Shown here one piece after another: positions 39,215 to 47,363 of a DNA stretch of 64,000 nt. Source of the DNA: Escherichia phage vB_VIPECOMC06. Position 1 is the first letter of the stretch. Each line of letters opens with the position of its first letter. A program made the position numbers and the translations under genes. The notes under the pieces were generated by a model, which did no database searches, was not told the origin of the DNA, and saw only the letters and a list, made by a program, of their open reading frames with translations. The stretch lies in the sequence record PQ416618.1, one strand, 5' to 3'.

Positions 39215-39850
39215 ATGAAAACTACTCCTATTACTATCGCTATTGACGCAATCATAAAACAAGCTTCTTCTTTGGCCGCTATGGCCAAAGTAATTAGTCA
39301 AAACCCTGCTCGTTATAATGCTATTCTAGAAACTCTTCGACGCCCAGGACTTAGTAATTATGAAAGCCGAGTAATTATTACAGGTGTTGGTAAGAATGCT
39401 AATATTGCAACTAAAGCTTCTGAGACATTTGCTTCACTCGGTATCCCGAGTATGTACTTGAACACAGGGCATTATTCTCATGGTGATGCAGGATTCATTG
39501 CGCCTAATGATGTGTTGATTCATATTAGTCGTTCTGGTAAAACTGAAGAAATGATAGGTGTGGCTAAGCATCTTAAAATGATTCGTCCGAACGTCAAACA
39601 GATTCTGTTGCATTGTAACCCTGACATTCCACAAGAATACGAAGCTCTTTTTGATTATACGTTCTGTACAGGCATCGCAGTAGAGGTTGATGAGAATTCT
39701 CTGGCTCCGACCATGTCCACTACATTGTTGTTAGCGCTTATCGATACGTTTGCTATCAACCTTTCGTCTGAACGTGGATTTACCTCTAATGACTTCCTTA
39801 AGTTCCACCCTGGCGGTGCACTAGGTGCCATGTTACGAGGCGAACAATGA
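39215..39850 (+). CDS. SIS-domain sugar-phosphate isomerase (KdsD/GutQ-like arabinose-5-phosphate isomerase, no CBS domains)
   Basis: SIS core VIITGVGKNANIATKASETFASLGIPSMYLNTGHYSHGDAGFIAPNDVLIHISRSGKTEEM parallels the KdsD N-terminal domain. Confidence 0.7.
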   Translation: MKTTPITIAIDAIIKQASSLAAMAKVISQNPARYNAILETLRRPGLSNYESRVIITGVGKNANIATKASETFASLGIPSMYLNTGHYSHGDAGFIAPNDVLIHISRSGKTEEMIGVAKHLKMIRPNVKQILLHCNPDIPQEYEALFDYTFCTGIAVEVDENSLAPTMSTTLLLALIDTFAINLSSERGFTSNDFLKFHPGGALGAMLRGEQ

Positions 39851-39990
39851 AAGCAATAACAATAGGACTTTTACTATTGATGCTTGTCATGACTATCTAC
39901 TGGAGCTTAACGGCTCCAGTATTGATTCCAACACTTGTAATCGGATGGATTATGATTGGACTACAAGCAAAGTATGAATGCTTTAACTAG
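39847..39990 (+). CDS. small hydrophobic peptide (47 aa)
   Basis: ATGA-coupled to the SIS gene; two hydrophobic segments; not in ORF track (<60 aa). Confidence 0.35.
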   Translation: MKAITIGLLLLMLVMTIYWSLTAPVLIPTLVIGWIMIGLQAKYECFN

Positions 39991-40003
39991 AATAGTGTAC
40001 AAT
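39979..40003 (+). promoter_or_regulatory. putative MotA-dependent middle promoter for the nucleotidyltransferase/kinase gene
   Basis: MotA-box TGCTTTA (39979-39985) with TACAAT 12 bp downstream. Confidence 0.4.
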
Positions 40004-40031
40004 ACACCTACTTACCAATGAGGACCACAAC

Positions 40032-41717
40032 ATGAAAAAAGCTGTTATTCTTGGTGCTGGATTGGCAACTCGTTTGTATCCAATAACGCATCATATTCCT
40101 AAGGTGCTTGTTAACTATAAACAAGACACTATTCTGAGCAATTTGTATACAATTTATTCTGACCTTGGCGCAGATGAAATTATTGTAGTAGTTCATTCAA
40201 AATTTGCTGAAACTGTTCGAGCTTATTGTGAGCAAGAAGGGTTCAATGTGACTATTCGTACAGTTGATGAAGCGTATGGTTCTGCTTATGCTCTTGCTAA
40301 ATTACACAAAGATTTAGACGGCCATAATGTAATTGTTAACTGGTGTGATATTATTCCTGATTTCGGTTCATGGTCTTGGAATGTTAACGCAATCTATGTT
40401 AAGGGTGACGAATGTCGATATAATTTCGACGGTGAAAATATCACTAACGTAGGTTCAACAGGTGGTAATGTTGTAGGAATTTATCAGTTCAAAGACTGGG
40501 AATTCTATATGGGTTCTACTGATGAGGAAATTCATGAATACTGCAAAGGACGTGATTTCGTAGAATTCCTTTACGGCAGCGCATTCAATAAATCAGAGCT
40601 TATGAATCTAATTGATTTAGGTGATATGCCTAAACTTGAAAAAGCTCATGAAGTTCGTGAACTTAATCGTAGTTTTAATGCAGTTGAAATTGGTGAAGAA
40701 ACTGTAACTAAATTCGCATTAACCGAACAGGGCCGAGCTCTTCAGAAAGATGAGATTTCATGGTATCTTAAAGTGAAATCAGATTCAGTTCCTCAGTTAG
40801 TTTCTGTTAATGAAAATAACTTTGAAATGGAACGCATTAAAGGTAAGCCGGCATTTGAATATATTAAATCCAAATCAAGTCTTGCTCGTCCACAAATTGT
40901 TGATGCAATTTTAGACGCACTGAAATTCAGCACAGACACTTATTTTGTAAGTCCTGAAACTGTTCGTCGTGATTTCACTAAAGAATTCTATACGAAAGTT
41001 ATTGATCGTTGTGAAAGTATTCAACCATTGATTGATTCATTTGGTAAAATCACACATGTAAACTACACTAAGATTGGGCGTCTGAAGCCAATGTTGAAAC
41101 AAGCTTTAGAACACCTTATTCGTTATCATAACCGTTCTCAGGGACAGTACTCTGTTATTCATGGTGACCCGAACTTCAGTAATACTATGATTACTGATAA
41201 CGGTGAAGTCAAGTTTATCGACCCTCGTGGATATTTTGGCGAAACCAAGATTTACGGGCCAAAATTGTATGATGAAGCTAAAGTGCTTTATGCTGTTTCA
41301 GGTTATGATGAATTCAACGCTAATCCGACCTGGGGGCAGTTTACTATTGATGAAACAACTTGTAATGTGACTATTAACATCAATCCATTAGTTTACAAAT
41401 ATGGAAAGATGAGTTCGTTTAACGAGTATCATCATTTGGCAGTGGCAATTATCTGGATTGCATTAGGTGGTTATTTCAAGAATAATCCACTTAAAGCGGT
41501 AGCCGCATATTATAAAGGTATGGAACTTCTGACTAAGCAATTACGTAACATGGGCCGTGTACTTCAGGACGGCTCTATTAGTTATGACGTAGCAGAACCT
41601 GTAACGGCTACTCTGATTACAAAAAATCCTGGTAAATGGGTACTAACTGATAAAGAAACTGGTGTTTCCTATCGTCCAATCGGTGGCGATATCACTCATC
41701 AATGGGAACGAATCTAA
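40032..41717 (+). CDS. bifunctional sugar-1-phosphate nucleotidyltransferase / anomeric sugar kinase (561 aa)
   Basis: N-terminal RmlA/MurU-type motif AVILGAGLATRLYP; C-terminal APH/choline-kinase-type catalytic loop VIHGDPNFSN and FIDPRGYFG. Confidence 0.7.
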   Translation: MKKAVILGAGLATRLYPITHHIPKVLVNYKQDTILSNLYTIYSDLGADEIIVVVHSKFAETVRAYCEQEGFNVTIRTVDEAYGSAYALAKLHKDLDGHNVIVNWCDIIPDFGSWSWNVNAIYVKGDECRYNFDGENITNVGSTGGNVVGIYQFKDWEFYMGSTDEEIHEYCKGRDFVEFLYGSAFNKSELMNLIDLGDMPKLEKAHEVRELNRSFNAVEIGEETVTKFALTEQGRALQKDEISWYLKVKSDSVPQLVSVNENNFEMERIKGKPAFEYIKSKSSLARPQIVDAILDALKFSTDTYFVSPETVRRDFTKEFYTKVIDRCESIQPLIDSFGKITHVNYTKIGRLKPMLKQALEHLIRYHNRSQGQYSVIHGDPNFSNTMITDNGEVKFIDPRGYFGETKIYGPKLYDEAKVLYAVSGYDEFNANPTWGQFTIDETTCNVTININPLVYKYGKMSSFNEYHHLAVAIIWIALGGYFKNNPLKAVAAYYKGMELLTKQLRNMGRVLQDGSISYDVAEPVTATLITKNPGKWVLTDKETGVSYRPIGGDITHQWERI

Positions 41718-42103
41718 TGCACCGTGTAAAAAACATGCTTAATCTTTGTTTTGATGTCGATGATTGTATAACAGAGTGGAATAACAATCGTGATTACGTG
41801 AACTTCAAACCAGACGTCGAAATGGTATCTGCCATTAATGCTCTGTATGATGCAGGGCATACCATAACGCTTTACACTGCTCGCGGTATGAAGTCAGTCG
41901 GTCCTGGTCGTATAGCAATCGACATTCTCCCAAGTCTGATTCAGAACTTGGCAAACATTGGCTTGAAGTACCATAATTTGCTAACACATAAACCAGTATA
42001 TGATTGGATTATCGACGACAAAGCTATGCGTCCTGACGAATTCAAAGCTCTTATGAATAAAGGCGAATTCGAAACATTTAAATCATATAAACCGAATCTA
42101 TAA
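41717..42103 (+). CDS. HAD-superfamily phosphatase (KdsC-like)
   Basis: HAD motif I FDVDDCITE, motif II TLYTARG, motif III K (THKPVYD), motif IV IIDDKA; start uncertain (41717 or 41735). Confidence 0.65.
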   Translation: MHRVKNMLNLCFDVDDCITEWNNNRDYVNFKPDVEMVSAINALYDAGHTITLYTARGMKSVGPGRIAIDILPSLIQNLANIGLKYHNLLTHKPVYDWIIDDKAMRPDEFKALMNKGEFETFKSYKPNL

Positions 42104-42157
42104 TAATTTAAGTAAGACCTGCAAAAACCATCGCAACAATTAACGCGAGATGCAAAA

Positions 42158-43318
42158 ATGAATACCTTTAAAATCGGAACGAATTTTGATTTAGCTCTTC
42201 TTGATAAAATCGTAGAGCTCAATAAAACTTATCCTAATAGCTTGATAAACGAAGTATACGGCTCTACAAGAGAAATGGCTTTTGTAGCAGCCAGACCTGA
42301 TTTTAGGCTTCCTGACGTTGACAAAAAGATGTTAGAAGATTACGTTAAACGTTGTAACGAATTAGGTATTTGCTTTAACTATACACTCAACACGATAAAT
42401 CCTGGTTCAAAAAGAGAACTAGTTGAGTGGAAGAAGAAAGCTATTCAGGATTATGTTCAGTATCTTTGGTCAATAGGCGTATGGCGTATTACTATCGCTA
42501 ACCCTGTTGTTATGGAAATTGTTCGTGAAGTCAATAAAGACATTGAGATTGAAGTTTCAACAATTCTACATGTCGATGCTGTAACTCAAATCAAATACTT
42601 GCATGACCAGTATAATATCAAAAAGGTCTGCTGTGGAATTCATAAGAACCGTTCAGTTTCTTTCCTGAAGCGTGCAGCAGAGTTTTGCAATAAGAACAAT
42701 ATAATATTTGAAGTTCTTGTAAATGAGTTCTGTTCTAATGCTGGTAAAGGGTATACAACACATTGTAGTTATCGTGACTCTTGCTATATTTTCCATAGCA
42801 CCGATGTTACAGTAGATGATGCCAAATCCTTAAATGGATATCCAATGCAACACTGCATTAAAGCTCGTGATACAGACCCATTTAACTGGTTGAGAACTCG
42901 TTTTGTTCGTCCTCAAGATTTGAAACTTTATAATGATATTGGTATCACTCAATTTAAAGTTTCTGGACGTACAGGTAGCACCGACTACATTTTGAAAGTT
43001 CTTGAAGCTTATGCTTCTGAAAAGTTTGAAGGTAATTTGTTAGAACTGTGGAAGCCTTTAGAGACTATTTTCACTCTTGAAAACGAAACTGAGTTTTCAC
43101 ATACGGTAAATATTGAAACCTCTTTGTTAGATGGCTTTTTAGAAAAAAGGTGGTTCAAACATCCAGATTTCGATTGTGCTAATGAAATCTGTGGGACGAC
43201 GTGTACATATTGTGAAAGATATTATAAACGTCAGTTATCTAAAAACGGGTTATCAGAAAATTCTATATCTATTATTGATATAACTAACTCTGATGACGCT
43301 TTGAGGTACCCAGAATGA
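42158..43318 (+). CDS. Cys-rich enzyme of unknown function (386 aa)
   Basis: Cys cluster EFCSNAGKGYTTHCSYRDSC and C-terminal CANEICGTTCTYC; weak resemblance to the TIM-barrel peptidase-U32 (RlhA/UbiU) pattern; part of the sugar-nucleotide cassette. Confidence 0.55.
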   Translation: MNTFKIGTNFDLALLDKIVELNKTYPNSLINEVYGSTREMAFVAARPDFRLPDVDKKMLEDYVKRCNELGICFNYTLNTINPGSKRELVEWKKKAIQDYVQYLWSIGVWRITIANPVVMEIVREVNKDIEIEVSTILHVDAVTQIKYLHDQYNIKKVCCGIHKNRSVSFLKRAAEFCNKNNIIFEVLVNEFCSNAGKGYTTHCSYRDSCYIFHSTDVTVDDAKSLNGYPMQHCIKARDTDPFNWLRTRFVRPQDLKLYNDIGITQFKVSGRTGSTDYILKVLEAYASEKFEGNLLELWKPLETIFTLENETEFSHTVNIETSLLDGFLEKRWFKHPDFDCANEICGTTCTYCERYYKRQLSKNGLSENSISIIDITNSDDALRYPE

Positions 43319-43458
43319 TTTCTAGAAAAACTTTTAACCACCAACTTAATGAAGAGATTTTGACTATTAAAATTAACAGCAACGAACAAATTCTTAAACA
43401 GGCCCATAAGGGCCTGTTTGAAACTAAAGCGGCTAAAGTGATTAAAGAACCTAACTAG
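43315..43458 (+). CDS. hypothetical small ORF (47 aa)
   Basis: ATGA-coupled to upstream gene; contains CAGGCCC-ATAA-GGGCCTG hairpin; may be noncoding. Confidence 0.2.
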   Translation: MISRKTFNHQLNEEILTIKINSNEQILKQAHKGLFETKAAKVIKEPN

Positions 43459-43591
43459 AATACTACGCTGATGCATTTCTTCATAGTGTTCTTGGAAGTA
43501 TCGATGCCGAAGCTTTACGTTATATCAACATCGCTAAGAAATTCAAATAAGCTTTATGAATTGAGTATATAATAACTGTATTGAGGTAAAC

Positions 43592-44308
43592 ATGGGAAAA
43601 CATAACACAATGAAATATATTAAAGCCGCAGATTTTCAATCCGCATTTAAAGCAGTCAATCGTGAAATTTTAGAAAACCCGGAATTCGTAACTGATTCTC
43701 GTATTGGACGTTGTAATGAAATTGGGTCTATGACAGTAGTTGTTGACACTCCATCTTCATTCAAAATGACCGATCCACGTATTAACCGCATCTCTTATGA
43801 ATATGCTGAAGATTTCTGGAAGTTTATGATTTCTGGTGGTACTGATGCAGAAGAAGCATTTAAGGCATATCCTAACGTTGCTAAATTTATTTCTAAACCT
43901 AAATCAGACGCTTTGCCTGCAAACTTCAACACTTTCTATGGTCCACGAATTGCGGCCCAGTTACCAGCTCTTTTAAAAGAACTTAAAGAGAAACCTAACT
44001 CCCGAAGAGTTGTGTTCCAAATTCTTGAAAGTTCAGATCAGGCTTTGCTTGATTCAGACGAAACACTTGAATATCCATGTACTGACTCAGTGACTTATTA
44101 TATTCGTGATGGTAAGCTTTATACCCACTGTCATATGCGTTCACAGAACTGTGCTGTTGTTATGCAGTTGGATTTTTATCTCCAAGGAAAATTACTTCAT
44201 TATATCGCTAAAGAATGTGGTGTAGAAGTTGGTGATTATACTCATACCATGGTAAGTGCCCATGTGTTTGAACGTGATTTTGATTATGTTAAAGGATTCC
44301 TTGACTAA
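43592..44308 (+). CDS. 42: thymidylate-synthase-fold pyrimidine hydroxymethylase (dCMP hydroxymethylase-like)
   Basis: TS-family pattern NSRR, catalytic Cys in YPCTDSVTYYIRDGK, MRSQN; position of gene 42 between 43 and uvsX; N-terminal half differs from T4 gp42 as recalled. Confidence 0.6.
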   Translation: MGKHNTMKYIKAADFQSAFKAVNREILENPEFVTDSRIGRCNEIGSMTVVVDTPSSFKMTDPRINRISYEYAEDFWKFMISGGTDAEEAFKAYPNVAKFISKPKSDALPANFNTFYGPRIAAQLPALLKELKEKPNSRRVVFQILESSDQALLDSDETLEYPCTDSVTYYIRDGKLYTHCHMRSQNCAVVMQLDFYLQGKLLHYIAKECGVEVGDYTHTMVSAHVFERDFDYVKGFLD

Positions 44309-45207
44309 TGGCTATTTTCCGCGTACCTATCTTGAGTATGCGGTCTTATGAAACTGGACAGTATGCTATCCTTAAGGATGGCAACTTCCAACTTCATTTG
44401 CACCGTGCTAATCCAGGTGATGTGATTACATATCCACGTAATGCATCTGATATTAAAGAATGCGAACGTCTTTTCCCAGAATTTAAGTTTGTTCCATTAT
44501 GGTATAAAGATAACGCGTATAACACTCGTAAATATTTCTGGTCTGAAAATGAATTTGTGGTTGATTCATTAATTGATTATTATGATTGTGATTTTCTAAT
44601 CACAGATATCACTGGATATGACGGCGCTTTTGATGTGGAATTCAATTTCAATATCACTGCAGACCCTAATAAACCACGTTTTTATATTGACGAATTCTTA
44701 AAAACCGACATGTTGTCTGTTAATCGTTCACTTCAAACTACTGTGTTGAATGAACGTCAAAAAGAAGTGCTGGTTAACGCAGGTGCAGATGGTAATAAGA
44801 TTATCGTAACCCAGAAAGTTATACGTCCTTCCATCATGCAGCGTCTTGTAGGTGATTTGGCTCCTATTCATCTAGATGGTATTTTTCATCCATTTCGAAT
44901 TAGTGACCCATGCTATCGTTTTGAACAAGTGGTTGAATGCGCAATTCAATTAGGCCAACCGCTTTATATAACCGATCCAAATAATAGCTTCGACAGAAAT
45001 AAGTATCCTGAAGAAGCGCTGATTCGAATTTTTAATCCAACTAAAACTGAGTACTATCAAATTCTTAAAGGACGTCCGAAGATTCAATATTTCGAAAATC
45101 CTGAAGAAGTATTCCATCCAGGTCTTGGTGAGTTCATCTACTTTAATGCTTTAATTTCTTCGCCGTATAATATACCTAAATATGAAGATGTCGTAATCGA
45201 GGAATAA
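44308..45207 (+). CDS. hypothetical protein in the beta-gt slot (299 aa); candidate DNA sugar transferase
   Basis: TAATG-coupled to gene 42; occupies the locus where T4 has beta-glucosyltransferase; no motif recognised. Confidence 0.5.
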   Translation: MAIFRVPILSMRSYETGQYAILKDGNFQLHLHRANPGDVITYPRNASDIKECERLFPEFKFVPLWYKDNAYNTRKYFWSENEFVVDSLIDYYDCDFLITDITGYDGAFDVEFNFNITADPNKPRFYIDEFLKTDMLSVNRSLQTTVLNERQKEVLVNAGADGNKIIVTQKVIRPSIMQRLVGDLAPIHLDGIFHPFRISDPCYRFEQVVECAIQLGQPLYITDPNNSFDRNKYPEEALIRIFNPTKTEYYQILKGRPKIQYFENPEEVFHPGLGEFIYFNALISSPYNIPKYEDVVIEE

Positions 45208-45208
45208 A

Positions 45209-45757
45209 ATGGCTAAAATTATTTTAGTAGATGGCCCGGATAATGCCGGTAAAACAACTTTCATTAATGACATAATGGAAATTAGTGAAAGATATGTAAA
45301 GATTGATTTCCCTAAACGAACAGTTGATGGACGTTTCGATGTTAAGTCTCGAAATGAAGTTGGCTGTTTCGAAACGATGTTGAATTATTTAGACCCTACT
45401 AAGATTTATCTGTTAGACCGTGGATATATTAGTAACTGGGTTTATGGACGTATTCGACAAGATGCGGACTCGGTTCTTGACGTTTATGAACAGGATTATG
45501 TTCGTCTTTGCCAAAACCATGATGTGTTCACAATTATTTTAACACGTAACGAAATGACTGAAAGTTTTGAAGACGACCTTATTACTTTGTCTTCATTCGG
45601 TTTTAATACAGTCATTTCATATTTTGAAGAGTTTGCAATTCATAACAAAATTCAAACGTATCAATTACTTAATCATGATGGTGCTAACAAAGTTATAGGA
45701 TTTAATGCAAGCGAACGTAATAATTTGATTACAGAAATTATCAAATGGGCTCGTTAA
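45209..45757 (+). CDS. P-loop nucleoside/nucleotide kinase-like protein (182 aa)
   Basis: Walker A ILVDGPDNAGKTT, LLDRGY; resembles dNK/TMK-type kinases, not T4 gp1. Confidence 0.55.
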   Translation: MAKIILVDGPDNAGKTTFINDIMEISERYVKIDFPKRTVDGRFDVKSRNEVGCFETMLNYLDPTKIYLLDRGYISNWVYGRIRQDADSVLDVYEQDYVRLCQNHDVFTIILTRNEMTESFEDDLITLSSFGFNTVISYFEEFAIHNKIQTYQLLNHDGANKVIGFNASERNNLITEIIKWAR

Positions 45758-45856
45758 GAGCCTGTTTAAAGTTTTAAATGCTGTATAACCGTTAGTATAT
45801 AATCGTCTTATCTTTTAAACATGAGTAAAATATAATGATGCCTATGGAAAAATACA

Positions 45857-47029
45857 ATGTCTGATTTAAAATCTCGTCTGATTAAAGCTTCTACTTCTAA
45901 AATGACTGCAGACTTGACTAAGTCTAAGCTGTTTAATAATCGTGATGAAGTCCCTACTCGTATTCCGATGTTGAATATTGCATTAGGTGGTGCACTGAAT
46001 GCCGGGTTGCAATCAGGCTTAACTATTTTTGCTGCTCCTTCTAAACACTTTAAAACGTTGTTTGGACTGACCATGGTTGCAGCGTATATGAAGAAATATA
46101 AAGATGCAATTTGTTTGTTCTATGATTCAGAATTTGGTGCTTCAGAATCTTATTTTCGTTCAATGGGTGTTGATTTAGACCGTGTAGTTCATACCCCGAT
46201 TCAATCTGTCGAACAACTTAAAGTTGATATGACTAATCAGCTTGACGCGATTGAACGCGGTGATAAAGTTATTATCTTTATCGATTCAATCGGTAATACT
46301 GCATCTAAGAAAGAAACCGAAGATGCGTTGAACGAGAAAGTTGTAGGTGATATGTCTCGTGCTAAGGCACTTAAATCTCTGTTCCGCATTGTGACTCCTT
46401 ATCTGACTATTAAAGATATTCCATGTGTTGCAATCAACCACACAGCAATGGAAATCGGCGGACTATATCCTAAAGAGATTATGGGTGGTGGTACAGGTAT
46501 TCTTTACTCTGCTAACACTGTGTTCTTTATCTCTAAACGTCAGGTTAAAGAAGGTACAGAATTGACTGGTTATGACTTCACACTGAAAGCAGAAAAATCT
46601 CGTACAGTTAAAGAGAAATCTACTTTCCCGATCACGGTTAATTTTGATGGCGGTATTGACCCATTCAGTGGCTTGTTAGAAATGGCAACTGAAATTGGTT
46701 TTGTAGTTAAGCCTAAAGCTGGTTGGTATGCTCGCGAATTCCTTGACGAAGAAACAGGCGAAATGATTCGTGAAGAAAAATCATGGCGTGCTAAAGCTAC
46801 TGATTGTGTAGAATTCTGGGGGCCGTTGTTTAAACATAAGCCTTTCCGTGACGCAATTGAAACTAAATATAAACTAGGTGCTATCTCTTCTATTAAAGAA
46901 GTTGATGATGCTGTTAACGACCTTATTAATTGCAAAGCAACAACTAAAGTTCCGGTTAAAACTTCTGATGCTCCGTCTGCAGCAGATATAGAAAACGACC
47001 TTGACGAAATGGAAGATTTCGATGAATAA
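45857..47029 (+). CDS. uvsX: RecA-like recombinase UvsX
   Basis: Walker A region FAAPSKHFKT, 390 aa, acidic C-terminus DLDEMEDFDE; order uvsX-40-41. Confidence 0.95.
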   Translation: MSDLKSRLIKASTSKMTADLTKSKLFNNRDEVPTRIPMLNIALGGALNAGLQSGLTIFAAPSKHFKTLFGLTMVAAYMKKYKDAICLFYDSEFGASESYFRSMGVDLDRVVHTPIQSVEQLKVDMTNQLDAIERGDKVIIFIDSIGNTASKKETEDALNEKVVGDMSRAKALKSLFRIVTPYLTIKDIPCVAINHTAMEIGGLYPKEIMGGGTGILYSANTVFFISKRQVKEGTELTGYDFTLKAEKSRTVKEKSTFPITVNFDGGIDPFSGLLEMATEIGFVVKPKAGWYAREFLDEETGEMIREEKSWRAKATDCVEFWGPLFKHKPFRDAIETKYKLGAISSIKEVDDAVNDLINCKATTKVPVKTSDAPSAADIENDLDEMEDFDE

Positions 47030-47363
47030 TCTCGATGATTTAAATCTAGAAATCGTTGATGAATCCCCTTCTTCGGAAGGGGAAGACATTCGCAAAGAAC
47101 GAGTGTTTAATGAATCTCTTAAAATTATCCGTTCAGCAATGGAAAATGTCATTCAAGAGATTCTGATTACACTTGAAGATGGTTCTCATCATATAGTCTA
47201 TATTACAAAACTAGACTGGGTTGATGGTAAAATCGTAATGGACTTTGCAGTTCTTGACCAGGACAGAAAAGCAGAACTTGCACCACATGTTGAAAAATGT
47301 GTTACAATGCAAGTACAACAAGCTTTTAATGAACGGGCCAAGAAAAAATTTAAATTCTTTTAA
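47022..47363 (+). CDS. 40: gp40-like protein (head vertex assembly accessory)
   Basis: Small ORF between uvsX and gene 41 as in T4; ATG at 47022 overlapping uvsX end. Confidence 0.55.
   Translation: MNNLDDLNLEIVDESPSSEGEDIRKERVFNESLKIIRSAMENVIQEILITLEDGSHHIVYITKLDWVDGKIVMDFAVLDQDRKAELAPHVEKCVTMQVQQAFNERAKKKFKFF

What the first reader, a model, noticed from the sequence alone, without database searches (positions are those of the whole stretch)
45209..45757. Extra P-loop nucleoside/nucleotide kinase between the beta-gt slot and uvsX
The Walker A ILVDGPDNAGKTT and overall size resemble deoxynucleoside or thymidylate kinases, and it is distinct from the core dNMP kinase gp1. It may phosphorylate a modified nucleotide or sugar intermediate, or regenerate NTP for sugar activation.
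Basis: inference. Interest (0 to 1): 0.55.

Follow-up and report, generated by a model that had tools for sequence, protein, structure and literature searches.

The report
Thymidylate-kinase-like kinase in 5-hydroxycytosine cluster
This is a real, conserved small phage enzyme with a thymidylate-kinase fold that sits in the gene cluster RB69-type phages use to make sugar-decorated 5-hydroxycytosine DNA; the literature already lists it as a predicted nucleotide kinase, but no paper I could read shows its substrate.

Summary
The ORF is real: 45209..45757 +, 182 aa, P-loop GPDNAGKTT. The window is an RB69-like Mosigvirus, and the protein is 98.4% identical to RB69 gp45 (NP_861735.1, PHROG 761, RefSeq name 'thymidylate kinase').

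It lies directly after the 5-hydroxy-dCMP synthase and the first arabinosyltransferase. This TS/GT/kinase association recurs in distant viral contigs. A remote analogue occupies the same place in a hexose-using Rhizobium phage. That ties the kinase to the base, not the sugar.

Most likely it phosphorylates the modified dCMP (5hodCMP, or less likely an arabinosylated form) to the diphosphate. This is not shown. RB69's gp1-type kinase already does this step in vitro, and phage MP1 keeps the kinase without the pathway.

The gene and its prediction were published in 2021 and 2026. The primary HY126 paper could not be read.

Verdict: observation confirmed, interpretation partly right, already known, moderate-to-low interest.

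The parts
45209..45757 (+). Kinase ORF, 182 aa plus stop; orthologue of RB69 gp45 / NP_861735.1; PHROG 761
45233..45259 (+). Walker A / P-loop, residues 9-17 (GPDNAGKTT)
   Evidence: G9, G14 and K15 are invariant and D11 is conserved in >=90% of 42 family members down to 21% identity. hhalign aligns this stretch to E. coli Tmk GLEGAGKTT.
45308..45319 (+). FPKR motif, residues 34-37
   Evidence: F34, P35 and K36 are invariant among close relatives, and K36 is conserved in >=90% family-wide. The profile-to-PDB matches to thymidylate kinases run from the P-loop through this motif. A role in binding the acceptor phosphate is inferred by analogy with the TMPK 'FPER/REP' region.
45416..45445 (+). 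DRGYISNWVY, residues 70-79: counterpart of the TMPK DR(Y/H) motif
   Evidence: D70 and R71 are invariant family-wide; S75, N76 and Y79 are conserved in >=90%. hhalign aligns the stretch to the Tmk 'DRHDLSTQAY' segment.
45545..45583 (+). Presumed lid segment, residues 113-125 (RNEMTESFEDDLI), with near-invariant R113 and the family-specific D122-D123 pair
   Evidence: R113, D122 and D123 are conserved in >=90%. This is the least confident part of the model (block pLDDT 64), as expected for a mobile lid. The lid assignment is inferred.
45199..45203 (+). GAGGA ribosome-binding site inside the 3' end of the upstream gene
   Evidence: Read directly from the sequence. It lies 5 nt before the ATG, and the upstream stop codon ends 1 nt before the ATG.
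44308..45207 (+). Upstream neighbour: predicted first arabinosyltransferase (orthologue of RB69 gp46:47)
   Evidence: PHROG 3891 E 1e-155. RB69 gp46 and gp47 match it as one ORF. The function is predicted, not shown, in PMC13326640. This gene is immediately upstream of the kinase in most T4-like loci, though not in L002, L004 and L023, and in distant contigs L027-L029.
43592..44308 (+). 5-hydroxy-dCMP synthase (flavin-dependent thymidylate-synthase homologue; orthologue of RB69 gp48)
   Evidence: Pfam Thymidylat_synt E 2e-15. 99% identical to RB69 gp48, whose activity is shown in PMC13326640. Near-identical to PDB 9iqc/9ir2/9iqu (E 1e-161).
39215..43318 (+). Rest of the module: SIS isomerase (39215-39850), bifunctional sugar kinase/nucleotidyltransferase (40032-41717), HAD phosphatase (41702-42103), U32-family protein (42158-43318)
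   Evidence: Pfam SIS, NTP_transferase plus kinase-like domain. TIGR01689-like HAD. Peptidase_U32. All are co-linear with the kinase in about 20 T4-like loci.

Best explanation
The ORF encodes an active, phage-specific nucleoside-monophosphate kinase with a thymidylate-kinase fold. It is the kinase component of the 5-hydroxycytosine DNA-hypermodification module.

Proposed mechanism (inferred):
1. The adjacent flavin-dependent thymidylate-synthase homologue converts dCMP to 5-hydroxy-dCMP.
2. This kinase binds ATP at the P-loop (K15, T16) and binds the modified dCMP through the TMPK-type contacts: the P-loop Asp11 to the 3'-OH, and Arg71 of the DR motif plus the FPK(R) segment to the 5'-phosphate.
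3. It transfers the gamma-phosphate to give 5-hydroxy-dCDP.
4. Host NDP kinase makes the triphosphate, and the phage polymerase incorporates it.
5. The sugars are then added.

In T4-like phages this step overlaps with the gp1-type dNMP kinase. The gene probably travels as part of an ancestral synthase / glycosyltransferase / kinase cassette.

Shown here: gene reality, fold, conserved catalytic motifs, purifying selection and gene association. Inferred: kinase activity and the identity of the acceptor.
For: Fold and motifs:
- The family profile aligns to E. coli Tmk from the P-loop to the DR motif (probability 92.7%, E 4e-7).
- G9, G14, K15, D70 and R71 are invariant, and D11, K36, S75, N76, Y79, R113, D122, D123 and N133 are conserved in >=90% of 42 members down to 21% identity.
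- dN/dS is 0.07-0.20.

Association with the base-making enzyme:
- In 20 of the 21 T4-like loci with enough flank, the kinase lies in the pol43-uvsX module together with the TS homologue and GT1. The gene order varies, so the linkage is not just frozen synteny.
- In distant metagenomic contigs the immediate neighbours are again TS and/or GT1: L028 TS-GT1-KIN, L027 and L029 GT1-KIN, L030 and L005 TS-KIN.
- The kinase occurs in 343 phage records, against 342 records with a TS homologue >=60% identical to the 5hoC type.

Independence from the sugar:
- Rhizobium phage RL38J1 attaches galactose/glucose to 5hoC. It has a remote TMPK-like kinase (hhalign probability 79%) directly beside its GT and 5hodCMP synthase (PMC13326640 Table 1).
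- The window's sugar kinase is a separate gene.

Need for a phage kinase: expressing the synthase alone in E. coli gave only trace 5hodC in DNA, and adding a phage dNMP kinase raised it (PMC13326640, section 24). Host kinases therefore handle 5hodCMP poorly.
Against: - No assay of this protein exists in any paper I could read.
- RB69 gp159 (gp1-type dNMPK) converts 5hodCMP to 5hodCDP in vitro and supports 5hodC incorporation in vivo (PMC13326640). A second kinase for the same step therefore looks redundant in T4-like phages.
- Morganella phage MP1 keeps an intact kinase with every family motif, and no faster divergence, but has no 5hoC synthase, GT1 or arabinose genes in the 150 kb examined. 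The kinase can persist without the pathway.
- The nucleobase-binding helix is shorter than in TMPK and could not be aligned confidently, so base specificity cannot be read from the sequence.
- The kinase is the fastest-evolving member of the module (39% identity to Dhakavirus, against 79% for TS).
It may assign a different role.
Confidence: 0.5

Rival explanations
1. Generic thymidylate/dNMP kinase, as the RefSeq name 'thymidylate kinase' implies. On this view it is an auxiliary nucleotide-metabolism gene that boosts dTDP (or general dNDP) supply, has no specific link to modified cytosine, and sits in a hypervariable slot only by chance.
For: - Thymidylate kinases are the best structural matches, and the only significant sequence-profile link is to Tmk.
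- Phage MP1 retains an intact copy without the 5hoC genes.
Against: - The protein fails both curated TMPK models: no PF02223 match, and TIGR00041 scores 16.2 bits against a cutoff of 83.25.
- The base-binding helix differs from TMPK.
- Its distribution tracks the 5hoC-type synthase almost one to one. It was not found next to hmC-type or unmodified T4-like modules, apart from MP1.
- gp1-type kinases already supply dTDP in these phages.
Confidence: 0.15
2. Kinase for a glycosylated mononucleotide. On this view the first arabinosyltransferase acts on 5hodCMP before replication. This kinase accepts the bulky arabinosyl-5hodCMP, which the gp1-type kinase cannot, and converts it to the diphosphate for incorporation.
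For: [quoted passage not shown] It also reports that no GT arabinosylated 5hoC-containing DNA in vitro (section 26).
- TS, GT1 and the kinase are translationally coupled in that order in the window, and the same trio recurs in L028.
- This reading would explain why 5hoC phages carry a second kinase while hmC phages do not.
Against: - Gene order is not conserved: the kinase precedes TS in Dhakavirus, in Klebsiella phage CP-p-KP-21072 and in L023.
- Unglycosylated 5hodC is readily incorporated into DNA in vivo, and later arabinosyl transfers occur on DNA (PMC13326640).
- In the fusion-bearing contigs L030 and L005 the kinase follows TS directly, with no GT between them.
- All known phage DNA glycosylations are post-replicative (general knowledge).
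Confidence: 0.12
3. DNA-level role. On this view the protein phosphorylates a base or sugar hydroxyl within DNA, as the 5-hmU DNA kinases of thymidine-hypermodifying phages do, or it acts as an ATP-dependent partner of DNA-acting enzymes.
For: - Eight distant family members are fused to an MBD4-type HhH-GPD DNA glycosylase domain (E 3e-19 to MBD4 structures, with the catalytic-loop Asp conserved).
- 5-HMUDK P-loop kinases also characteristically pair with, or are fused to, HhH glycosylase-like proteins (PMC8989533).
Against: - The validated 5-HMUDK, M6 gp54, is in a different PHROG (800) and aligns with this family only over the 24-residue P-loop.
- The family keeps the TMPK-type P-loop Asp and DR-motif Arg. 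In TMPKs these hold a free nucleotide's 3'-OH and 5'-phosphate (general knowledge of TMPK structures).
- No phosphorylated base was reported in RB69 or DLP3 DNA by LC-MS/NMR (PMC13326640).
- A phosphate on the 5-OH would block the glycosyl acceptor rather than activate it.
Confidence: 0.07
4. Sugar-pathway or NTP-regeneration kinase. On this view it phosphorylates arabinose or an arabinose phosphate, or regenerates UTP for UDP-arabinose synthesis.
For: The gene lies in the same block as the UDP-arabinose genes.
Against: - The cluster already has a dedicated sugar-kinase domain in the bifunctional 561-aa protein. The HY126 orthologue of that protein is reported to carry the arabinose-5-P kinase and uridylyltransferase activities (as cited in PMC13326640, section 27).
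- A kinase in the same position accompanies the synthase in hexose-using RL38J1.
- The fold and motifs are those of a nucleotide kinase, not a sugar kinase.
- GTs release UDP, which host Ndk recharges (general knowledge).
Confidence: 0.04

Closest known systems
RB69 gp45 (RB69p045, NP_861735.1) and its orthologues; PHROG 761
   Same: 98.4% identical over the full length, in the same position between the arabinosyltransferase gene and uvsX. PHROG 761 matches at E 5e-45. For practical purposes this is the same protein.
Thymidylate kinase (TMPK; Pfam PF02223, TIGR00041; e.g. E. coli Tmk, vaccinia A48R 2v54)
   Different: - It fails both curated family thresholds, with 8-19% identity to solved TMPKs.
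- The helix carrying the thymine-stacking Phe and the O4-binding Arg in TMPK is about 10 residues shorter and not confidently alignable.
- The lid is acidic (FEDD) with a single conserved Arg, rather than Arg-rich.
- The family is restricted to phages with a 5hoC module.
T4 gp1-type deoxynucleoside monophosphate kinase (PDB 1dek; RB69 gp159)
   Same: Both are phage-encoded P-loop NMP kinases. gp1-type enzymes phosphorylate the modified dCMP (hmdCMP in T4; 5hodCMP in RB69, PMC13326640), which is the role proposed here.
5-hydroxymethyluracil DNA kinase (5-HMUDK; M6 gp54, ViI gp67/gp243)
   Same: Both are small P-loop kinases in phage base-hypermodification clusters next to a thymidylate-synthase homologue. 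Both families have members paired with or fused to HhH glycosylase-type domains (PMC8989533).
   Different: It belongs to a different family (phrog_800). Only the 24-residue P-loop aligns. 5-HMUDK acts on DNA to create a leaving group, and the chemistry of 5hoC glycosylation needs none.
RL38J1 gp214 (QGZ13894.1), the TMPK-like kinase of the Pootjesviridae 5hoC-hexose cluster
   Different: It has its own PHROG (37904). hhalign probability is only 79%. Its P-loop is GLDRTGKDT (with Arg, class-I-like), and it has 'PR' in place of 'DR'. It is an analogue or a very remote homologue, not an orthologue.

Membership tests
Thymidylate kinase (PF02223 / TIGR00041) | Scores above the curated family thresholds | tested here: not met
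   There is no PF02223 match at E<=1; only AAA_14 and MMR_HSR1 match, at P-loop level. TIGR00041 scores 16.2 bits against a cutoff of 83.25, over residues 3-28 only. As a control, E. coli Tmk scores 205 bits on PF02223.
Thymidylate kinase (PF02223 / TIGR00041) | TMPK three-dimensional fold | tested here: met
Thymidylate kinase (PF02223 / TIGR00041) | P-loop GxxGxGK[ST] with an acidic residue that contacts the dNMP 3'-OH, and a DR(Y/H) motif whose Arg binds the acceptor phosphate | tested here: met
   G9-P-D11-N-A-G14-K15-T16 and D70-R71 are invariant or near-invariant. hhalign aligns them to Tmk GLEGAGKT and DRH. The functional roles are inferred from published TMPK structures.
Thymidylate kinase (PF02223 / TIGR00041) | Thymine pocket (stacking Phe plus O4-binding Arg on the following helix) and an Arg-bearing lid or P-loop | tested here: inconclusive
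   hhalign places an 8-residue-plus gap exactly over the Tmk 'LMFYAARV' segment. F54 could be the stacking Phe, but the Arg four residues later would then be L58. The P-loop has Asn12, not Arg, and the lid has only R113.
Thymidylate kinase (PF02223 / TIGR00041) | ATP:dTMP phosphotransferase activity | not testable with these tools
   This needs an enzyme assay.
RB69 gp45 family (PHROG 761), the kinase of the 5hoC hypermodification cluster | Full-length sequence match to the family | tested here: met
   PHROG 761 E 5e-45 over residues 1-180. 98.4% identity to RB69 gp45. The A2 family HMM scores 219 bits.
RB69 gp45 family (PHROG 761), the kinase of the 5hoC hypermodification cluster | Located in the pol43-uvsX module together with the 5hodCMP synthase, GT1 and the UDP-arabinose genes | tested here: met
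   The window order is SIS, AfhE-like, HAD, U32, TS, GT1, kinase, uvsX. The same gene set is present in RB69 and about 20 other T4-like loci. The TS is 99% identical to the experimentally validated RB69 gp48 and near-identical to PDB 9iqc.
T4 gp1-type dNMP kinase | Sequence or close structural similarity to gp1 (1dek) | tested here: not met
[quoted passage not shown] | Homology to validated 5-HMUDKs beyond the Walker A | tested here: not met
   hhalign of the family against M6 gp54 aligns only 24 residues, the P-loop. M6 gp54 is in phrog_800, with only a P-loop-level touch on phrog_761.
[quoted passage not shown] | Phosphorylation of a base hydroxyl within DNA | not testable with these tools
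   This needs an assay on 5hoC-containing DNA. Published LC-MS/NMR of RB69 DNA reports no phosphorylated base (PMC13326640).

The most novel reading that the evidence does not exclude
The first sugar is added before replication. On this reading the adjacent glycosyltransferase arabinosylates 5-hydroxy-dCMP, and this kinase is the specialised enzyme that carries the bulky arabinosyl-nucleotide to the diphosphate. The phage polymerase would then incorporate an already glycosylated dCTP. It would be the first pre-replicative DNA glycosylation pathway. It would also explain why 5hoC phages need a second dNMP kinase and why no GT arabinosylated 5hoC-DNA in vitro.
Probability: 0.1. Interest if true: 0.8.

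Novelty: already known. Interest (0 to 1): 0.3.

Why it matters
The 5-hydroxycytosine/arabinose DNA modification was worked out only in 2025-2026. It protects a large group of therapeutic-candidate T4-like phages from restriction and CRISPR. In the papers I could read, this kinase is the one conserved cluster gene with a clear enzymatic fold but no assigned step. It also appears redundant with the gp1-type kinase.

Identifying its substrate would settle an explicitly open point: whether the first sugar goes onto the nucleotide or onto DNA. It would also complete the minimal gene set needed to transplant the pathway.

As a genome-scan finding it is ordinary. It is a correctly spotted gene that has already been annotated and discussed.

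Tried and rejected
- Single-sequence search of PDB sequences found only P-loop-level noise, such as RecA and thioredoxin.
- I tried to read He et al. 2026 (Nat Chem Biol, HY126 Afh pathway) and Mahler et al. 2025 (Cell Host Microbe) by DOI and by PubMed id. Neither is held. Searches for Afh gene names found nothing relevant. Whether this protein has an Afh letter or a published assay therefore remains unknown to me.
- PDB entries for the HY126-type TS exist (9iqc, 9ir2, 9iqu) but are named only 'Thymidylate synthase'. There is no PDB entry for the kinase or GT1.
- The search for related loci with the broad alignment A2 failed because no stretch was conserved enough. The narrower A1 returned mostly T4-like loci.
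- Consensus promoter and terminator scans around the gene gave counts no higher than in shuffled sequence.
- The 5-HMUDK hypothesis was considered because of the glycosylase fusions. It was rejected as a family assignment after direct comparison with M6 gp54.
- The base-pocket residues could not be mapped. hhalign gaps the relevant helix, and the model coordinates cannot be exported for superposition.
- I did not check the last 13 kb of MP1 (150-163 kb) or the whole RL38J1 genome for a gp1-type kinase.

Full report
**1. Observation**

The quoted Walker A string is residues 5-17. The ATG follows the stop codon of the upstream 299-aa gene by one nucleotide, and a GAGGA ribosome-binding site lies at 45199-45203. 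The gene is therefore the last cistron of a tightly coupled block that ends 99 nt before uvsX (45857..47029).

It is not a chance ORF:
- tblastn finds a full-length copy in 343 phage records.
- PHROG 761 matches at E 5e-45.
- dN/dS against orthologues is 0.07-0.20 where synonymous sites are not saturated.

**2. Identity of the window and the gene**

The region 41500-47100 is 97-98% identical to many Mosigvirus (RB69-like) genomes, including HY126. The protein is 98.4% identical to RB69 gp45 (RB69p045, NP_861735.1), which RefSeq calls 'thymidylate kinase'.

The surrounding genes are the RB69 gp45-gp55 block:
- SIS isomerase, 39215-39850
- a 561-aa nucleotidyltransferase plus kinase-like protein, 40032-41717
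- a HAD phosphatase, 41702-42103
- a U32-family protein, 42158-43318
- a thymidylate-synthase (TS) homologue, 43592-44308
- a 299-aa glycosyltransferase (GT1), 44308-45207
- the kinase

**3. What the literature says**

Lee et al., NAR 2026 (PMC13326640), show that RB69 DNA carries arabinosylated 5-hydroxycytosine, not arabinosyl-hmC as thought in 2018 (PMC6024577). They also show that gp48, the TS homologue, is a flavin-dependent 5-hydroxy-dCMP synthase.

[quoted passage not shown] They also report that no glycosyltransferase (GT) arabinosylated 5hoC-DNA in vitro.

A 2021 comparative paper had already flagged RB69p045 as a thymidylate-kinase homologue presumably involved in the modification (PMC8056088).

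The two most relevant primary papers, He et al. 2026 on HY126 and Mahler et al. 2025, are not in the library. I cannot exclude that they report an assay.

**4. Fold and catalytic motifs**

An AlphaFold2 model built on 20 homologues is confident (pLDDT 88, pTM 0.84). Only the segment around residues 113-128, the presumed lid, is weak.

At the sequence level the family is far from TMPK:
- There is no PF02223 match.
- TIGR00041 scores 16 bits against a cutoff of 83.
- The family profile touches PDB TMPKs only at E 0.003-0.1, over residues 1-42.

hhalign of a 42-member alignment against E. coli Tmk gives probability 92.7% (E 4e-7). The alignment runs from the P-loop to D70-R71, which pairs with the Tmk DRH motif, but it has a large gap over the thymine-binding helix.

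Across members down to 21% identity:
- Invariant: G9, G14, K15, D70, R71.
- Conserved in >=90%: D11, K36, S75, N76, Y79, R113, D122, D123, N133.

This is the pattern of an active NMP kinase that holds a deoxynucleotide 3'-OH (P-loop Asp) and 5'-phosphate (DR Arg), as TMPKs do. The assignment of those roles is inferred from published TMPK structures. The nucleobase pocket is different, and the lid has a family-specific acidic 'DD' pair.

**5. Family size and gene association**

An exhaustive HMMER scan of 1.84 billion cluster representatives found only 309 proteins at E<=1e-3 and 45 at E<=1e-10. The family is small and phage-restricted.

I fetched about 30 loci and searched them locally with the window's cluster proteins.
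- In 20 of the 21 T4-like loci with enough flank, the kinase sits in the pol43-uvsX module with the TS homologue, GT1, the HAD phosphatase and the bifunctional sugar enzyme.
- Its position differs between lineages. It comes after GT1 in Mosigvirus, Acinetobacter and other phages. It lies between the HAD phosphatase and TS (or U32) in Dhakavirus IME281, Klebsiella phage CP-p-KP-21072 and L023. The linkage has therefore survived rearrangement.
- In distant metagenomic contigs the immediate neighbours are again TS and/or GT1: L028 has TS-GT1-kinase, L027 and L029 have GT1-kinase, and L030 and L005 have TS-kinase.
- Record counts in the phage database agree: 343 records carry the kinase, and 342 carry a TS homologue >=60% identical to the 5hoC type. 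This is suggestive, not a strict overlap test.

In RL38J1, which attaches galactose and glucose rather than arabinose to 5hoC, a TMPK-like kinase again lies next to the GT and the synthase. That kinase is only remotely related to this family (hhalign probability 79%; own PHROG 37904). It is best seen as an analogue filling the same slot.

Together these results tie the kinase to the base-making step, not to sugar activation. The window encodes sugar activation separately.

**6. Two observations that complicate the picture**

(a) Eight distant family members of 314-357 aa are fusions of the kinase with a C-terminal domain. That domain is a clear homologue of the MBD4 mismatch DNA glycosylase (profile against PDB: MBD4 E 3e-19, Mig 7e-9, EndoIII 5e-7). 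The G-x-G-K-Y-x-x-D-S loop and its Asp are invariant. In L005 the fusion lies between a TS homologue and an FMN reductase, a SIS gene and an AfhE-like gene; in L030 it overlaps a TS homologue.

P-loop kinases that phosphorylate 5-hmU within DNA also pair with HhH glycosylase-like proteins (PMC8989533), so I tested that relationship. The validated 5-HMUDK, M6 gp54, is in a different PHROG and aligns with this family only over the 24-residue P-loop. The fusion therefore links the kinase to 5hoC-DNA biology, perhaps removal of 5-hydroxyuracil arising from deamination. It does not make the kinase a 5-HMUDK.

(b) Morganella phage MP1 has an intact kinase between pol43 and uvsX. In the 150 kb examined it has no 5hoC-type TS, GT1, HAD, SIS, U32 or bifunctional gene. 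Its sister phage Rgz1 has the full cluster. The MP1 protein keeps every family motif and is no further from the window protein (53.8% identity) than the Rgz1 one (54.5%). The kinase can therefore persist without the pathway, which supports either a broader dNMP-kinase activity or a recent loss of the pathway.

**7. Most likely mechanism**

I commit to the following. The protein is a dedicated ATP:dNMP phosphotransferase of the 5hoC module. It takes the product of the neighbouring synthase, 5-hydroxy-dCMP, to the diphosphate. This overlaps with gp1-type dNMPK in T4-like phages, and the gene is inherited as part of a synthase / GT / kinase cassette. Confidence is about 0.5.

- Shown: the gene, the fold, the conserved motifs, the selection and the association.
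- Inferred: catalysis and the acceptor.

Rival explanations:
- a generic thymidylate/dNMP kinase (0.15)
- a kinase for an arabinosylated mononucleotide, if GT1 acts before replication (0.12)
- a DNA-level role (0.07)
- a sugar or NTP-regeneration role (0.04)

**8. Comparison with known families**

It works like a thymidylate kinase and has that fold, but it fails the curated membership thresholds and differs in the base pocket and lid. I file it as a member of the RB69 gp45 / PHROG 761 family, a TMPK-like clade, and not as a bona fide TMPK. It is not a gp1-type dNMP kinase and not a 5-HMUDK.

**9. Novelty and verdict**

The gene, its TMPK-like fold and its presumed participation in the modification pathway are already published (2021, 2026). 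The finding is a correct re-discovery with a partly outdated chemical frame: hmC instead of 5hoC.

The points this analysis adds, as far as the papers I could read show, are the cassette-level association across distant viruses, the MBD4-glycosylase fusions, the orphan copy in MP1 and the exclusion of 5-HMUDK membership. Interest is moderate to low (0.3). The open and testable point is what this seemingly redundant kinase phosphorylates.

Noticed in passing
L005:8001-9074; L030:1446-2390; L006:127-1092 (proteins P0059, P0060, P0065, P0067, P0069, P0074, P0076, P0116): Distant members of the kinase family are fused to a C-terminal MBD4-type HhH-GPD DNA glycosylase domain (E 3e-19 to MBD4 structures; the GxGKYxxDS loop with its Asp is invariant). 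In L005 and L030 the fusion gene directly follows a thymidylate-synthase homologue. L005 also has an FMN reductase, a SIS gene and an AfhE-like gene. One possible role is removal of 5-hydroxyuracil formed by deamination of 5hoC. No free-standing homologue was found in the window or in the T4-like loci.
   Followed up: partly
L032:20500-21030 (Morganella phage MP1, NC_031020 / KX078569): MP1 keeps an intact orthologue of the kinase between pol43 and uvsX. In 0-150 kb it has no 5hoC-type TS, GT1, HAD, SIS, U32 or bifunctional sugar gene. Its sister Gualtarvirus Rgz1 has the whole cluster. MP1-Rgz1 identities are kinase 60.7%, uvsX 91.3% and gp41 79.1%, which suggests module exchange rather than decay. 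The last 13 kb of MP1 was not checked.
   Followed up: partly
window 42158-43318 (+); L031:2667-3827 and L031:4023-4400: The cluster contains a peptidase-U32-family protein (Pfam E 6e-11; weak UbiU similarity). The 2026 paper labels it only 'sugar or heterocycle reductase'. From general knowledge, the U32 enzymes RlhA (rRNA 5-hydroxycytidine), TrhP and UbiU/V are O2-independent, prephenate-dependent hydroxylases. In Morganella phage Rgz1 a genuine type-II chorismate mutase, which makes prephenate (CM_2, E 6e-12), lies between the U32 gene and the TS homologue. This suggests the U32 protein could provide an anaerobic route to 5-hydroxycytosine alongside the O2/flavin-dependent synthase. U32 is absent from the Dhakavirus and Acinetobacter loci.
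   Followed up: partly
L001:5099-5999 and L001:816-2502 (RB69 reference) versus window 44308-45207 and 40032-41717: Two genes are split in the RB69 reference record: gp46/gp47 and gp52/gp53. In the window each is a single intact ORF (299 aa and 561 aa). This agrees with the published statement that the RB69 splits are sequencing errors (PMC13326640).
   Followed up: yes
L031:5105-6013; L035:11686-12249: Some public annotations in these clusters are misleading. The GT1 orthologue of Morganella phage Rgz1 is annotated 'putative RNA polymerase binding protein'. The validated 5-hmU DNA kinase M6 gp54 is annotated 'terminase small subunit' in RefSeq, a label that PHROG 800 also carries.
   Followed up: no
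window 43315-43458 (+) and L001:4101-4340: A small ORF between the U32 gene and the TS homologue (47 aa as called in the window; RB69 gp49 is annotated as 79 aa) has no Pfam match. A small ORF recurs at this position in several clusters. Its function is unknown.
   Followed up: no
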